Assembly (NCBI GenBank): GCA_951406725.2
Contig: OX597824.1
Span: 66,402,001 to 66,466,000 of the forward strand
From: Octopus vulgaris
Taxonomy: Eukaryota
Direction of reading: 5' to 3'
DNA length: 64,000 nucleotides
Shown here: positions 10,521 through 52,176 of the stretch, piece after piece
Layout of the letters: each line of letters starts with the position of its first letter
Numbering within the stretch: the first letter of the stretch is position 1
Made by a program: the position numbers and the translations under genes
The notes under the pieces: model-generated
Told to the model about the DNA's origin: nothing
The model's input: only the letters and a program-made list of their open reading frames with translations
Databases searched by the model: none

Positions 10521-11021
10521 TAAAAATATTCATCTAAAATACATTCAAAAACATTTCCTAAAACTTTTAGCAAAGATCTATATACACAAACAATAATATG
10601 TACCAGGAAAAATGAAGACAAAACAAAAAAGAGGAAAAAAATTTTTTTCACACCTGCAGAGCTAGAAGTTCAAATAGTGAGAAAATATGAGAAACTTGAT
10701 ATTTTAAAAGTAATCTTCTTTCACAGGTGAAAAAAAAAAAAATTTAAATACCTACTTCACCAAGATTCTACTTAGAATATACTTTTTCTTAACAACCAAC
10801 CAATTTGACACAAGTTTCAAGCACTAATGATGCACTTACTGTACATGTTTGCACACACTCACTCGTGCACACATACAGAGCCTCTATGTCATTGCTTAAA
10901 AAATAAAATAGTAACCAAGTCTTCCTCAAATCACAGCTTACCTTTTAAAAAAATCAGGTAGGAAAAAAAATGAAGCTGGAATAATTTGATACTTGATGGG
11001 GATGATCTGGAACTAAACAAC

Positions 11022-11186
11022 AATCCTTTAGTTACTCCTATTCATACTAAGCCTGAGTGGTATTTTTTATTTGCATATGGTGTTTTACGGTCAACTCTAA
11101 ATAAGGTGGATGGAGGGGAATATCCTATTGTCTTGTTTGTTAGTCTTTTTTTTTTACATATTAGGGGATGTATAGGATTAACATTC
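11022..11186 (+). pseudogene. cytb: NUMT: nuclear fragment of mitochondrial cytochrome b (PEWY region)
   Basis: [28 protein letters not shown] matches cytb [28 protein letters not shown]; similarity continues weakly to LHxxGxxGLTF. Flanked by nuclear repeats inside the PACS intron. Confidence 0.85.
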
Positions 11187-11393
11187 TTAGGAGAGGCATG
11201 AACACCAAGACATTGGTTTTGCATGCAATGGGTCTCAAGAGAAGATGGGATTACCATAGAGTTGCTTTGACATGACTGACTTGGTGTTAAATACAGACAG
11301 CAATGAAACCCATGCACAAAATACAATCTGGACCATAAACAAAGTGCCCTCTGATTAAAAAGTGAGACTTTATTCATCAACATACTTAAACCT

Positions 11394-36883: not shown

Positions 36884-39290
36884 TGTTGGAGGAAATTAGT
36901 AATAATGGTACACCCCTCCCACGTGACGACTGGAATAACATAGTTACTATAAGAAAGAGAAGTACGTGAAGAGAAGTACATGGAGTACTGGAGTACGTAG
37001 TAGGTGGTCAGAGATAGTCGTTCTTTACTGATTTTACTAGGTATACTGCATACCAAAGTGGGCATTATAACAATCCAACATTTTAAAGGATTATAACAGT
37101 AGTGACGAGGATTTAAACAACTCATGAGGAATTAATAAATTCGATGAGGATAAACCAATTCACATGGAGTTAATAGAAACTCAAAGAGGAGTTAATGAAC
37201 TCATAAAGTTGGTGTACGAATTTTATGAAAAATCACAAAAGTATGGAAAATTTGTTGGAAGCTTTGCTCAAGTTGCAAAAACAGCAACAAATACTGCAAT
37301 TACGGAAGTTGTCAGGGAATTCAGAAAAAGTGTTCTTGTCAGACTATGTTGCAAACTCCATAACAGAGTTCAAATACGAACCTGATGAAAGAGTTACCTT
37401 CGAAGAATACTACAGAAGATATGAGCAAATCTTCGAGAAAGGACGTAAAGATTGGGACAACAAGATGAAAATGTGCTTAATCTTGAGAAAACTGGCAGCT
37501 ACAGATCATGACTGATACAGTAATTATGTACTTCCAAGAAAACCTTCGGATGTAAACTTTAATGACACAATAAATATATTGTGTAAAATTTTGCAGTGAA
37601 AAAAGCTCATTGTTCAACACACGTTGGAAGTATCTGAACATAGAGAAAAACAATGATGAGGACTACATCACATATACTGGTAGAGTAAACAGGAAATGTG
37701 AGAAGTTTAAGATGGATAAATTAAGGCTAGTTATGTTCAAATGCCTGATTTTTACACAGGGACTTACTGCCATAAAGGACACAGAAGTTAGAACTAGAAA
37801 TCTCACAAAGCTGGAACAAAACTAGATGTAACCCCACAGCAAGTGTCAGAAGAATGTGAAAGGATAGTCAAATTAAGATGTGACATTGAGGAAATTAAAT
37901 GTAAAGATTGTTTCCAAGTAAAGCAAATGCGAAATAGTTAGAATAGAGAAAAGTGTTTTCTAAAAAACACAACAAAAATCAGGAAATAGACCCATGTTTT
38001 GTATGTGGAGGTATACATCTGAGGAAAAATTATCCATTTAAGAAAGCGGAGTGCTTTCGTTGTGGAAATATAGGACATATAAAGATGCACTGTAGAACGA
38101 AGATGACAAAACATCAGAACAAAAAGAAAAAGAATAAATAGTATATCATTGGGAGAAATTGATAATATAATGATGAGGAAATTTGTGAAGGTGAAAATCA
38201 GAAATATAAATGTTAAAATGAAATTAGACACTGGAAGTGATATCACCATTATAAACAAAAAAACTTGGAATATGTCAATAAGCTGAAATTAATTAAATTG
38301 AAAAAAGTAGCACATGGTATTATGGGAAAAGGATTATATTTTTTTGGTGAATTCATACGTAATGTAACATTTCGAGGTCAAGTGAAAAATGCAAAGATAT
38401 ATGTGTTAAAAAGTTCACTTGATTTATTCAGCACAAAGTGGATGGAACTATTCAAAGTATGGAATATGCCCATAAGTGTTTTGTGTGGAAATATAGTCGG
38501 TTGAGTCAAAAGTTTGAATGTGACTGAAGGAGTGAAATAAAAAATTGCAGTAAAACAGAGTGGAACACCTGTATGTAAGTCAAAACAAAATGAAAAATTG
38601 CCCATGATAAAAAGTTCAAAAGTAGATGTTCCATGGTTGAGACTACACATCGATTTCACTGGTCCTTTAAACAGTTCATACTACTTAGTGGTTGTTGACA
38701 GTTTCTTGAAATGACCTGAAACTTGCAAGTGTAAAAAACCTACCTCCTCAACTGTGATAAATTTTTTACACAAATTGTTTGCAGGATTTGACATTTCAGA
38801 CAAGATAGTGTCTGACAATAGAACGCAACTTGTGTTTAGCAAATTTTGAACATTTTGTGAAACGTCTGCTGTAGAACACATAACTACAGCACCATATCAT
38901 CCCAGATCTAATGGGTAGGTAGAATGCTTTGTTGATACTTTCAAGAGAACCCTTAGAAAATCAAATAAGGAAGTCATGGATGAGGTAGCTCTACACCAAT
39001 TTTTAAGAGTGTACCATGTGACACCAAATCCAACTACACCAGCAGGTGGATCACTAATGGAGCTGATGTTGGCGAGGAAAGTAAAATCAGTCTTCGATAC
39101 ATTGATACCAGGCAAGACGAGGAAAAGTGCCTGGGAAAGCATGACAAGATTCTTTAAAATTAGTGAAAGGGTGTTTATGAGGGCATATAAGAATGGAAAA
39201 CAAAGTCGTGAAGATGTTGTAATTACCAAATGCCTAGGTAAAATTGGTAAAAAGTAGAAAAGACATACAAAAGAGACACAGGAACCAACT
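36884..39290 (+). mobile_element. Decayed Ty3/Gypsy (Mag-like) LTR retrotransposon; RT/RNaseH deleted, 3' LTR not found
   Basis: LTR TGTT...AACA at 36884-37098; PBS TAGTGACGAGGAT (37100-37112) resembles tRNA-Ser TGGCGACGAGGAT; gag (ITEFKYEPD..TFEEYYRRYE), two zinc knuckles, protease LDTGSD, integrase PWLRLHIDFTGP...VSDN...PYHPRSNG. Confidence 0.88.
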
Positions 39291-39784: not shown

Positions 39785-40943
39785 TTAGGTCGTCAAGTAT
39801 GAAATTTGTAGAAAAGAAAAAAAGTTTGTTAATGTATTATGAATACAAGGAATAGTCTTATTCATCAAAGTATGCACCCATATTGTCAATACACTTTTGC
39901 CATTTCAGTGGTAGCTCGTCCAGCCTGGAACTGTAAAAGCCTGGCAATCTAGAGTCAATAAAATTTTGGAAGGCCTGTTTTACAGCATCATCAGAATTAA
40001 TTTTTTTTCTAATCAAAAAGTTATCCAAATTCTGGAAGAAGTGGTAGTCAGTGGGGGAAAGATCAGGTGAGTATGGTGGATGATGGAGAACTTCCAACTC
40101 CTGCTCCTGTAGTTTCACCAATGTCATTTTTGCAATGTGTGGTCTGGTGTTGTCTTGCAATAAAATAGGAGTGGATCTGTTGACTAATGTAGGCTGTTTT
40201 TTGTAAGTTTCTGCATCATTTGGTCCAGTGAGCTGCACTATACTTCAGCTGTGATTGATGAGCCACGTTTAATGAAATTATAATGGACCACACTGGTGCA
40301 AGACCACCAAACACACACCACCAGCTTCTTTTGATGAATTTTGCTTTTTGGACTGTGTTTTGGTGGCTCATCTTTGTTCAAGAATTGTGCTGAACATTTA
40401 CAGTTGTTGTATTGGATCCATTTTTCATCATATATTACAATTCGATTCAAAAATGATTCATTTTAGTGATGAGAAAGTAGCATAATGCAGGCTTCCAAAC
40501 GTTGCTGTTTCTGATTTTCATTGAGTTCATGTGAAGCCCACTCATCCAACTTTTTCACTTTACCGATTTGAACTAGGAGAGACAATATTGTTTGCTTGCT
40601 AACACCAAACAACAATTATAATTCACAGGCACTTTGAGATGTGAGGTCAAAGTTACCAGAATGAAATTTTGCAAACCAATTTGATACTCCATTAATGTTC
40701 TGAGCAGTCTGTGATGTATTTCCAAGAAAGAACTCATATTTCAAAACTGTACAAATTTCTGACTTACCCATCTCTTAACAAAAATAGCAAAAAACGATTT
40801 ATAAATACTTTATAAAGTGCAAAATGAGTTAGAATAAAGAAATAGATGTATCAGCTTTCTAACAAAAAATAAAGATTGTCAAAATGAGCAGCTGTCAAAG
40901 TTTACCATATACCTTACTACAAATTTGATACTTGATGACCTAA
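39785..40943 (-). mobile_element. Near-full-length decayed mariner element
   Basis: 27-bp TIRs TTAGGTCRTCAAGTATSAAATTTGTAG at 39785-39811 and 40917-40943; YDEKWIQY, QDNTRPH and HPPYSPDLSPTDYH motifs. Confidence 0.92.
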
Positions 40944-41398
40944 TATATATATATATGATGATGATGATATATATATATATATACTCTTTTCCTAATTTAC
41001 TTGTTTCAGTCATTTGACTGCACCCATGTTGGAGCACTGCCTTTAGTCGAGCAAATTGACCCCAGGACTCATTCTTTGTAAGCCTAGTACTTATTCTATT
41101 GGTCTCTTTTGCTGAACCACTAAGTTATTGGGATGTAAACACACCACCATCGGTTGTCAAGCGATGTTGGGGGGACAGACACAGACACACAAACATATAC
41201 ATATATACGATGGGCTTCTTTCAGTTTCCATCTACCAAATCCACTCACAAGGCTTTGGTCAGCCCGAGGCTATAGTAGAAGACATTTGCCTAAGGTGCCA
41301 CACAGTGGGACTGAACCCGGAACCATTTGGTCGGTAAGCAAGCTACTTACCGCACAGCCACTTCTGCAACAAAATAAGCAACAGGATATCCAGAGGTA

Positions 41399-41486
41399 AT
41401 GCAGTACGATAGTTTCAAGTAACTCCATTTAATTGAACAATGCAACCATTAGATCAATTTAAATGCAGAGCAATCCTCAGCTGCAT
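41399..41486 (-). ncRNA. Type I hammerhead ribozyme motif, core intact
   Basis: ATGCAG-CTGAGGA-[long stem II]-GAAAC-TATC-GTA-CTGCAT: 6-bp stem I, GUA cleavage triplet, predicted cut between 41405 and 41404. The base of stem II is imperfect. Confidence 0.7.
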
Positions 41487-41959
41487 AAATACATAGAAAT
41501 AAATTAAATTAAAACAGATGGACACATTAATATAATTTTACCTAAAACCTCCAAATTAAAACTGCATAATTTTACCTAAAACTTCCAAATTAAAACTGAC
41601 CTCAAAAAACAGTGACAAGCTAGATCTCTAACAAGTCTTTCTTCCTTATACCTTAGTAGCTTCTAAACTGAAGTGAACACATCATGTTCATTGTCTATCT
41701 CCTTACCTTCTTGGAGGTTTTAGGTAAAATTATACTACTGTGTCCATCTGTTTTATTTATGCAGCTGAGGATTGCTCTGCATTTAAATTGATGTAATGGT
41801 TGCATTGTTCAATTAAATGGAGTTGCTTGACATGATTGTAATGTATTACCTCTGGATATCCTGTTGCTTATTTTGTTTTTAATCGACTTATTTTGAAACT
41901 GCATGGATAATACTTTACTAAATTATGGTGCCTCAACTTAAGTACCTAATTCATCTGAA

Positions 41960-42983
<1,024 letters not shown>

Positions 42984-51522: not shown

Positions 51523-52176
51523 TTGTAACTCCGAGTTTCATGATAGAGTGATTTACACAACTATCAGACAAATTACCTTAACCAGTACATGTGAATATTG
51601 ATGCATGCTAGAAAGGAAACGTTATAAGGCACAACACTTACGAAATTTGAGAAATACGAAAATAGTAGTGGATAATGGGTGGGAGAAAAAGAAAATATCT
51701 TATATGTTATTGAATAAGACTATCTACAACAAGACAATCACTTGCTACATCAAAGCACTAAAATCTAGTGGACTCAGACACAATTTTTTACACTCCAAAC
51801 CTCCACAATCCCAAATTAAGAAGGGACGCTATTGGATCCTTTGATTTATATCTCCTTTTTCGTTAAAGTTAAATTCTATATTGCTAAGAGTACTTTAGCC
51901 ATGATTGATTAGCATTACCCTGTTAACCATAAATACACAAAATTATTAATAGGAACAATCTTAAACTCAGTAGATGTACTATCAATATAAAGAATCTAAT
52001 AGCTTATAAATCTTCGAAATTAACTGACGTTAACTGTTCATGCAGAAAACTAATACATGCCCACTTAATTAGCCATATGATGCTGAAGCGGAAGCCATCT
52101 TCATTGCACTAAGCATTGATATGGTTCATAAACACTACATGAGTATGACAAAATAAATTTAAACAATGATACTTTA

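What the first reader, a model, noticed from the sequence alone, without database searches (positions are those of the whole stretch)
41368..41877. About 500-bp foldback element whose two arms each encode a hammerhead ribozyme, on opposite strands
Seen: 41368-41554 and 41711-41877 are inverted repeats. The left arm read on the minus strand gives ATGCAG-CTGAGGA-[about 57-nt stem II]-GAAAC-TATC-GTA-CTGCAT. The right arm on the plus strand gives the same motif decayed (GACAT-GATT-GTA). The two-arm consensus of stem III is the palindrome AC-GATC-GT. Known: Penelope-like elements and metazoan retrozymes carry minimal type-I hammerheads with palindromic stem III, proposed to cleave as dimers. Inference: this is a non-coding PLE-derived unit that could self-cleave minus-strand RNA. 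Minus is also the strand of the putative host gene whose intron spans it, and the long hairpin would be an ADAR substrate.
Basis: partly seen in the sequence, partly recalled or inferred. Interest (0 to 1): 0.7.

Follow-up and report, generated by a model that had tools for sequence, protein, structure and literature searches.

The report
Penelope retrotransposon stub with inverted end
The hairpin is real, but it is the decayed, cut-short end of a very abundant Penelope-like jumping gene plus the mirror copy that such elements likely make on landing; its self-cutting RNA motif is conserved across the family, while in this copy it is mutated and predicted to be locked shut by the hairpin.

Summary
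The inverted repeat and both hammerhead motifs are there as described. They are not a self-contained non-coding unit. [quoted passage not shown] An inverted partial copy, a tail on one end only and a (TA)n-type flank are published features of such insertions, and this junction is unique in the genome. The family hammerhead looks genuine (5,725 core matches, control 0; compensatory changes across five families) and has an unusually long 57-60-nt stem II that Rfam misses. This copy is probably dead: the right arm has core mutations, the left arm has lost its stem III palindrome and a stem II pair, the motifs lie on opposite strands, and either transcript makes the antisense arm first. No host gene spanning the site, no locus-specific RNA and no editing were shown. 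The scan met the same kind of foldback in at least 15 other genomes.

The parts
41368..41554 (-). Inverted, 5'-truncated partial copy of the element's 3' end, stopping at the family's short terminus (no tail)
   Evidence: Maps to family reference 1259-1444/46 at 96%; 48 of 117 family 3' ends fall at 1440-1456
41399..41486 (-). Type-I hammerhead motif: core letters intact, 57-nt stem II region, stem III palindrome broken (ACTATCGT), one G-C pair at the stem II base lost
   Evidence: Sequence; folding and duplex energies; alignment A1
41532..41598 (.). Head-to-head junction between the inverted and forward copies, present twice as a 33-nt tandem duplication, with a 2-nt microhomology
   Evidence: Direct repeat D3; junction read-out; only these two matches in the genome
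41587..41963 (+). Forward, 5'-truncated copy: last ~400 nt of a Hydra-type Penelope-like retrotransposon (end of 3' UTR, hammerhead, tail), with a 20-nt internal deletion
   Evidence: Maps to family reference 1135-1532 at 89%; linked to RT and EN in L141, to EN in L104, L065, L148, L151
41759..41846 (+). Decayed hammerhead motif: GAAA to GACA, closing pair of stem I broken, five substitutions within 14 nt
   Evidence: this variant occurs once in the genome
41878..41963 (+). Tail of about 85 nt, present on this end only
   Evidence: 56 of 117 family 3' ends fall at 1521-1560; 18 of 22 inverted pairs have one short and one long end
41959..42127 (.). (TATC)n/(TA)n microsatellite at the 3' end, the likely target
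   Evidence: 99 of 117 family ends are followed by a microsatellite within 30 nt against 14.6% of random positions
41000..41367 (+). High-copy short interspersed repeat abutting the inverted arm (recalled as the common octopus SINE; not tested against a library); no target-site duplication seen
   Evidence: Very high multi-copy depth in reads and contigs; same repeat flanks other loci

Best explanation
The foldback is one decayed insertion of an abundant, protein-coding Penelope-like retrotransposon with Hydra-clade motifs: a 5'-truncated copy of its hammerhead-bearing 3' end joined head to head to a shorter inverted copy, likely made once at this site when the element's enzyme primed reverse transcription from both cut DNA strands. 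Shown: the architecture, the link to RT and endonuclease, two preferred 3' ends, the one-sided tail, the microsatellite flank, the unique junction, and covariation of the family hammerhead. Inferred: the endonuclease cuts both strands of (TA)n-type DNA; two cDNAs start at the two internal start sites (about 40 and about 130 nt past the cleavage site) on RNA that was uncut or re-ligated; both stop early and are joined by microhomology. The hammerhead likely served the parent element, as a weak dimer- or protein-assisted ribozyme. In this copy it is predicted to be inactive, and the hairpin is a passive by-product.
For: L141 holds inverted arm + RT + EN + 3' UTR + hammerhead in one locus; L156 shows hammerhead and tail running straight into the ORF start, the pLTR-ORF tandem. 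RT piece matches 484-712-aa proteins at E 1e-36 to 4e-29, 36% identity; EN piece matches P0001 at 2e-21. Motifs DKT, CxCx5C, CxxC..E..N..CxH, no cysteine pair inside GIY-YIG fit the Hydra description (PMC8557442 section 11). 104 of 117 3' ends at two sites; 18 of 22 inverted pairs short+long, p=0.002. Inverted/forward junctions differ from locus to locus; this one is unique. 24 of the first 100 pattern matches sit in 12 pairs within 1.2 kb, all in the window's orientation (counted by eye). An anole PLE protein cuts and extends both strands and starts at two internal sites (PMC11167929). Covariation: 91% of cells paired, 6 of 21 pairs with changes on both sides, slid controls 24-52%. Foldback -275 to -280 kcal/mol pairs 77-84 of 88 hammerhead bases with the other arm.
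Against: No intact ORF was found; all coding copies seen carry stops or frameshifts. Pfam gives only a sub-threshold GIY-YIG hit (E 0.01) and no RT hit. No tree was built, so the clade rests on motifs; the RWK motif reads RWI here. The two-strand priming model is borrowed from a Poseidon-clade element; self-priming on an antisense template (PMC3846280) fits head-to-head repeats too. In one search the count of pairs with two-sided change was reached by 90 of 500 shuffles, the rows are related, and the search pattern fixed the core, the first two bases of stem I and a purine-purine-pyrimidine-pyrimidine loop. Single-sequence folding gives low stem I probabilities for four of the five family representatives (0.00-0.30). 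No cleavage was measured.
Confidence: 0.9

Rival explanations
1. The left arm is a live ribozyme that cuts a minus-strand host pre-mRNA, regulated by the hairpin or by ADAR.
For: All 12 core letters are intact in the left arm and stem I is predicted to form in the isolated 98-mer (P 0.92-0.96). The right arm, not the left, took five core-proximal substitutions. A U.U at the base of stem II is compatible with cleavage in an axolotl hammerhead (PMC7229834 section 15) and is the Hydra norm (14 of 26 rows).
Against: Stem III palindrome broken, stem II base reduced to one G-C pair, antisense arm transcribed first, stem I probability about 1e-61 in context; 96 of 134 sampled copies also keep the core, so an intact core is the default; no spanning gene found; depth 0-4.
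Confidence: 0.04
2. A non-autonomous foldback element (MITE-like or retrozyme-like) that is copied as a whole.
For: Long terminal inverted repeats, no ORF in the 500 bp; two other loci match most of the stretch at 78-83%.
Against: Those two loci have different junctions; most copies have one arm only and scattered 5' ends; no target-site duplication here; no tandem unit with same-strand hammerheads; junction unique.
Confidence: 0.02
3. Same element, but the inverted arm arose by snap-back or self-priming of one cDNA (or an antisense template) rather than by priming from both strands.
For: Many short stubs have palindromic or microhomologous centres; proposed in PMC3846280; the duplicated junction here shows slippage.
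Against: The two outer ends usually fall at different preferred sites (18 of 22), which two separate starts explain directly; a snap-back copy would need a second rule to end at the other site.
Confidence: 0.2

Closest known systems
Hydra clade of C-terminal-endonuclease Penelope-like elements (Craig et al. 2021, PMC8557442; section 11, passages and supplementary files S1/S2 part 2 read)
   Same: RT then CxCx5C linker then GIY-YIG without the internal cysteine pair; DKT; CxxC and CxH around E and N; (TA)n targets; type-I hammerhead near the 3' end, with a U after CUGANGA and a U before GAA as in 14 of 26 listed rows; inverted 5'-truncated copy (noted for Penelope-13_HM). A Hydra family is already listed from Octopus bimaculoides.
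   Different: About 6 kb in L141 (a few later insertions included) against under 3 kb, owing to a 3' UTR of roughly 3 kb of ~865-bp tandem units and an Asn-rich insert; 57-60 nt between the two core halves against at most 26 in the 26 listed Hydra rows; RWI for RWK; the listed octopus family has a different, short hammerhead.
Insertion architecture of endonuclease-bearing PLEs: inverted pLTR and one-sided tail (PMC3846280 passages; PMC8557442 fig. 2 legend; PMC11167929 parts 1-2 of 4)
   Same: Head-to-head inverted partial copy, tail on one end, two preferred ends, AT-rich targets, no sign of RNA ends at the ribozyme site.
   Different: Tail about 85-100 nt rather than 30-40 nt; no target-site duplication here.
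Minimal type-I PLE hammerheads (Cervera and de la Pena 2014, PMC4209133; parts 1-2 of 4 and passages read)
   Same: Palindromic stem III; thousands of dispersed copies; 'dual' motifs 100-700 bp apart on opposite strands are described there for Schistosoma.
   Different: Much longer stem II with a covarying distal hairpin; no G10.1-C11.1 pair. A similarly long stem II is listed for the spike-moss element PLE-X1_sMoe.
Metazoan non-LTR retrozymes (PMC7229834, passages and section 15; bioRxiv 10.64898/2026.07.22.740005, part 1 of 5)
   Same: Type-I hammerhead in a dispersed animal repeat tied to PLEs.
   Different: Retrozymes are head-to-tail tandem units of about 300-350 nt with same-strand ribozymes; this is head to head, not tandem, and is contiguous with a coding element.

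Membership tests
EN+ Penelope-like element | RT followed by C-terminal GIY-YIG endonuclease in one ORF, physically linked to this end | tested here: met
   L141 and others; homologues; all copies seen are broken; Pfam GIY-YIG only E 0.01
EN+ Penelope-like element | pLTR formed by partial tandem: 3' end region also precedes the ORF | tested here: met
   L156: hammerhead + tail continue into the ORF start; L178 shows the last part of the same junction
EN+ Penelope-like element | 5' truncation, inverted partial copy, tail on one end | tested here: met
   tail longer than published
Hydra clade | DKT, CxCx5C linker, no CCHH pair inside GIY-YIG, CxxC and CxH around E and N | tested here: met
   (DKT in 6 of 6 readable copies; CxxC..E in 11 of 11, final CxH in 9 of 11; one Cys only inside the GIY-YIG stretch in 5 of 5)
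Hydra clade | N-terminal RWK motif | tested here: inconclusive
   RW present, third residue I in 2 of 2 readable copies
Hydra clade | (TA)n insertion preference | tested here: met
   99 of 117 ends followed by a microsatellite, control 14.6%; the test counted several microsatellite types
Hydra clade | Placement in the clade by RT phylogeny | not tested
   No reference set was on hand as usable sequence; no tree built
Neptune/Nematis clade | CX2-5CxxC linker and CCHH motif with two cysteines between GIY and YIG | tested here: not met
   Linker is CxCx5Cx5C and only one Cys lies inside the GIY-YIG stretch; definitions
Type-I hammerhead (family level) | CUGANGA, GAAA, NUH in order, with stems I-III | tested here: met
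   Core intact in 96 of 134 copies found by similarity; N7 varies G/A/U between families; stems recovered by RNAalifold and covarying
Type-I hammerhead (family level) | Self-cleavage | not testable with these tools
   No pile-up of read ends in three RNA runs and no unique spike of DNA junctions at the site; neither is a cleavage assay
Type-I hammerhead (left arm) | Closed stem II base and pairable stem III | tested here: not met
   U.U, U.U, G-C, C.A; self-duplex +0.3 kcal/mol
Type-I hammerhead (right arm) | Intact core and closing pair of stem I | tested here: not met
   GACA for GAAA; G.A at the closing position
Rfam hammerhead families | Match to a covariance model | tested here: not met
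   No hammerhead hit in the window; no family at gathering score in 20 loci with intact cores
Non-LTR retrozyme | Head-to-tail tandem units with same-strand hammerheads, no ORF link | tested here: not met
MITE / foldback DNA transposon | Copies share both termini and a junction, with a target-site duplication | tested here: not met

The most novel reading that the evidence does not exclude
Several Hydra-type Penelope families in this genome carry, in more than 5,000 copies, a hammerhead whose stem II has grown into a 57-60-nt imperfect rod with a covarying tip that standard models miss. The rod is kept under selection across families only 53-82% alike there, and works as a docking site or switch that couples cleavage to binding of the element's protein, next to two reverse-transcription start sites about 90 nt apart.
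Probability: 0.3. Interest if true: 0.55.

Novelty: new variant of a known kind. Interest (0 to 1): 0.28.

Why it matters
The locus itself is transposon debris and should not be read as a regulatory ribozyme. The family matters modestly: it adds thousands of hammerhead motifs that Rfam does not see, it extends the little-studied Hydra clade to a longer element with a long stem II and a long tail, and its many dated insertions give a natural test set for how Penelope-like elements make inverted ends (one short and one long end in 18 of 22 pairs). If such foldbacks are transcribed they would add to the double-stranded RNA load in an animal group known for heavy editing (recalled), but that was not shown here.

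Tried and rejected
MITE reading: rejected (scattered 5' ends, single arms, unique junction). Neptune assignment, which I held until: dropped after reading the Hydra section and checking motifs. Junction pile-up at the cleavage site: a one-sided listing suggested it (7 of 17 junctions within -5..0 among 100 of 1,894 matches, by eye), but a two-sided listing did not (100 of 157 matches shown; 27 set aside as internal indels, duplicates or unclear; of 73 junctions 7 at +1, 8 at +7, 7 at +10, density rising towards the 3' end, by eye; the first 30 rerun agree except one row read on the wrong strand). A 26-codon reading frame starting in stem II: not kept in the second subfamily (stop at codon 3). 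U.U at the base of stem II as a sign of decay: dropped, it is common in published Hydra hammerheads. RNA: no RNA holder on record was listed; the three raw runs were added by species label, about 6% of each was read, strandedness and species identity with the window are unknown; family-level reads lay on both strands, about 90% ran on into unlike sequence, and no common start or end was found. Hyper-edited reads would fail the 96% filter. Host gene: 125 open stretches (111 minus, 14 plus; of 312 that passed the first filter) gave only transposase, gypsy-type, PHD-like and cytochrome b hits; two atlas look-ups were uninformative. One search used wrong coordinates and returned the Asn-rich linker of a sister subfamily; one of its loci (L189, L205 arms) entered the 134-copy set. 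Lunse et al. 2017 (PMC5785218) is not held and is cited only through a review passage. Searches for a prior description of this family or of a long stem II found none beyond the papers named; most subscription journals and Repbase/Dfam were not searchable, and only part 2 of 59 of the Craig supplement was read.

Full report
Observation. The inverted repeat is present: 41368-41491 and 41754-41877, 124 nt, 94% complementary, extending with one 20-nt gap to 41554 and 41711. The left arm on the minus strand reads stem I, CTGAGGA, 57 nt, GAAAC-TATC-GTA, stem I; the right arm on the plus strand carries the decayed form. Rfam reports no hammerhead in the window at E<=1 and nothing on 41360-41900 at E<=10. 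The genome is 2.8 Gb in 227 contigs; I take it to be an octopus from the flanking repeat and the size (recalled, not tested).

It is part of a large dispersed family. A search with the 510 bp gave 3,199 candidate places, 40 scored. Most copies hold one arm only, share their 3' ends and differ at their 5' ends. Walking upstream through copies led through about 3 kb of AT-rich ~865-bp tandem units to a GIY-YIG-type endonuclease and a reverse transcriptase. L141 holds inverted arm, RT, endonuclease, 3' UTR and hammerhead in one stretch. In L156 the hammerhead and tail continue directly into the ORF start, the partial tandem that makes a pLTR. All coding copies seen are broken. The RT piece matches four proteins of 484-712 aa at 36% identity, E 1e-36 to 4e-29, plus one fused 1,618-aa record; the endonuclease piece matches P0001 at 2e-21. 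Pfam gives only a sub-threshold GIY-YIG hit.

Clade. The protein shows DKT, RW(I), a CxCx5C linker, one cysteine only inside the GIY-YIG stretch, and CxxC and CxH around the conserved E and N. These are the features given for the Hydra clade (PMC8557442 section 11), not for Neptune or Nematis. The same paper's supplement lists a Hydra family from Octopus bimaculoides and 26 rows of Hydra hammerheads, 14 with a U on each side of the stem II base as here, none with more than 26 nt between the core halves (counted by eye). No tree was built.

Architecture. Among 117 distinct 3' ends in loci L001-L182, 48 lie at reference 1440-1456 and 56 at 1521-1560; 99 are followed by a microsatellite within 30 nt, against 14.6% of random positions. 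Of 26 inverted pairs 20 have one short and one long end; after dropping 4 (two pairings with an arm of another insertion, two where the forward copy runs on into the ORF) it is 18 of 22, p=0.002 against one half. The window copy follows the rule: short end on the left, tail on the right. Junctions differ between loci and the window's junction occurs only as its own 33-nt tandem duplication. A core pattern matched 5,725 places, reversed control 0; 24 of the first 100 listed sit in 12 pairs within 1.2 kb, all minus-then-plus like the window. Inverted partial copies with a one-sided tail are published PLE features, opposite-strand hammerhead pairs 100-700 bp apart were noted in 2014, and a purified anole PLE protein cuts and extends both strands from two internal start sites on mostly uncut RNA. 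The foldback is therefore best read as a product of one insertion.

Is the family hammerhead real? The core is intact in 96 of 134 copies collected by similarity; within the window's subfamily core columns are 96.9% conserved against 91.0% for flanks, a modest difference partly due to subfamily structure. Across five families 53-82% alike to the window's family in stem II, stem I reads ATGCAG/CTGCAT, ATGTGG/CTACAC, TTTTAG/CTAAAA, TTTTGG/CTGAAC and ATTTAG/CTAAAC; the free position 7 varies; stem III stays self-complementary. RNAalifold recovers stem I, the distal hairpin of stem II and stem III unprompted. On 27 rows, 91% of cells pair, 54 cells change on both sides (shuffles 22.5), and slid controls pair 24-52%; the count of pairs with two-sided change (6) was reached by 90 of 500 shuffles. 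The rows are related and the pattern fixed some columns, so this supports the fold without proving activity. Single-sequence folding favours the hammerhead for the window's subfamily but not for the others. Rfam finds nothing at gathering score in 20 loci with intact cores.

Is this copy active? Probably not. The right arm has GACA for GAAA and a broken closing pair of stem I; its five substitutions in 14 nt are private to this locus. The left arm keeps the core but its stem III self-duplex is +0.3 kcal/mol against -10.0, and its stem II base keeps one G-C pair. A U.U at the first position is not itself disabling. The two motifs lie on opposite strands and cannot pair as a dimer within one RNA. 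On either strand the antisense arm is transcribed before the sense motif; in the 621-nt context 77-84 of 88 hammerhead bases pair with the other arm and stem I has a probability below 1e-60 (equilibrium model).

Expression and host gene. Family-level RNA reads cover the hammerhead and tail on both strands, mostly run on into unlike sequence, barely touch the ORF and show no common ends. At 96% likeness the foldback has depth 0-4 and no A-to-G cluster. These runs were sampled at about 6%, may be of a related species and would lose hyper-edited reads, so the test is weak. No gene spanning the element was found: the one supported minus-strand coding exon, 20186-20068, resembles the start of a PACS gene (PF25332, E 0.087, below cut-off) and leads away from the element. 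An unseen non-coding or small exon cannot be excluded.

A lead from earlier scan notes, that fold-back points mark the ribozyme cut, was tested and not supported for this family (see Tried and rejected).

Verdict. Ordinary locus, known architecture, known clade by motifs; the family's long stem II, long tail and long 3' UTR make it a modest variant. The scan has met this kind of foldback in at least 15 genomes. Interest 0.28.

Noticed in passing
window 20186-20068 (-): Likely first coding exon of a PACS gene (weak PF25332 match, GTAAGT donor, CpG-rich upstream stretch); the gene would run leftwards.
   Followed up: partly
window 41829-41846 (+): All five substitutions of the right arm's 124-nt core-bearing part fall within 14 nt of the catalytic 3' half; two are CpG transitions. 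Chance cluster or selection against a plus-strand ribozyme; unexplained.
   Followed up: partly
window ~47700-47256 (-): Intronless, stop-ridden ORF remnant followed by UTR-like sequence; pseudogene-like, unnamed.
   Followed up: partly
window 10974-11198 (+): Cytochrome b fragment (PF00032, E 3.5e-10), likely a nuclear copy of mitochondrial DNA.
   Followed up: no
window 39861-40462 (-), 42612-42803 (-), 37207-39254 (+): Tc1/mariner transposase remnants on both sides of the element and a gypsy-type remnant (DUF7083).
   Followed up: no
window 51713-52049 (+): Remnant of another Penelope-like ORF (tblastn with P0004, E 1e-4).
   Followed up: no
G000:C7:97459730-97459789: Short run of (CCCTAA)n telomere-type repeats at the 5' junction of a family stub.
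   Followed up: no
rows, e.g. L277, L290: Several copies lack the 11 nt right after the cleavage site, between two CTG repeats; slippage or a sub-lineage.
   Followed up: no
L245, L247, L251, L262, L264, L270: Further diverged families with the same long stem II and the same two 3' ends; their link to an ORF was not traced.
   Followed up: partly
L156:470-500 (+): Pyrimidine tract and AG just before the ORF start codon, suggesting a 5' UTR intron as in other PLEs; no canonical joint seen in reads.
   Followed up: partly
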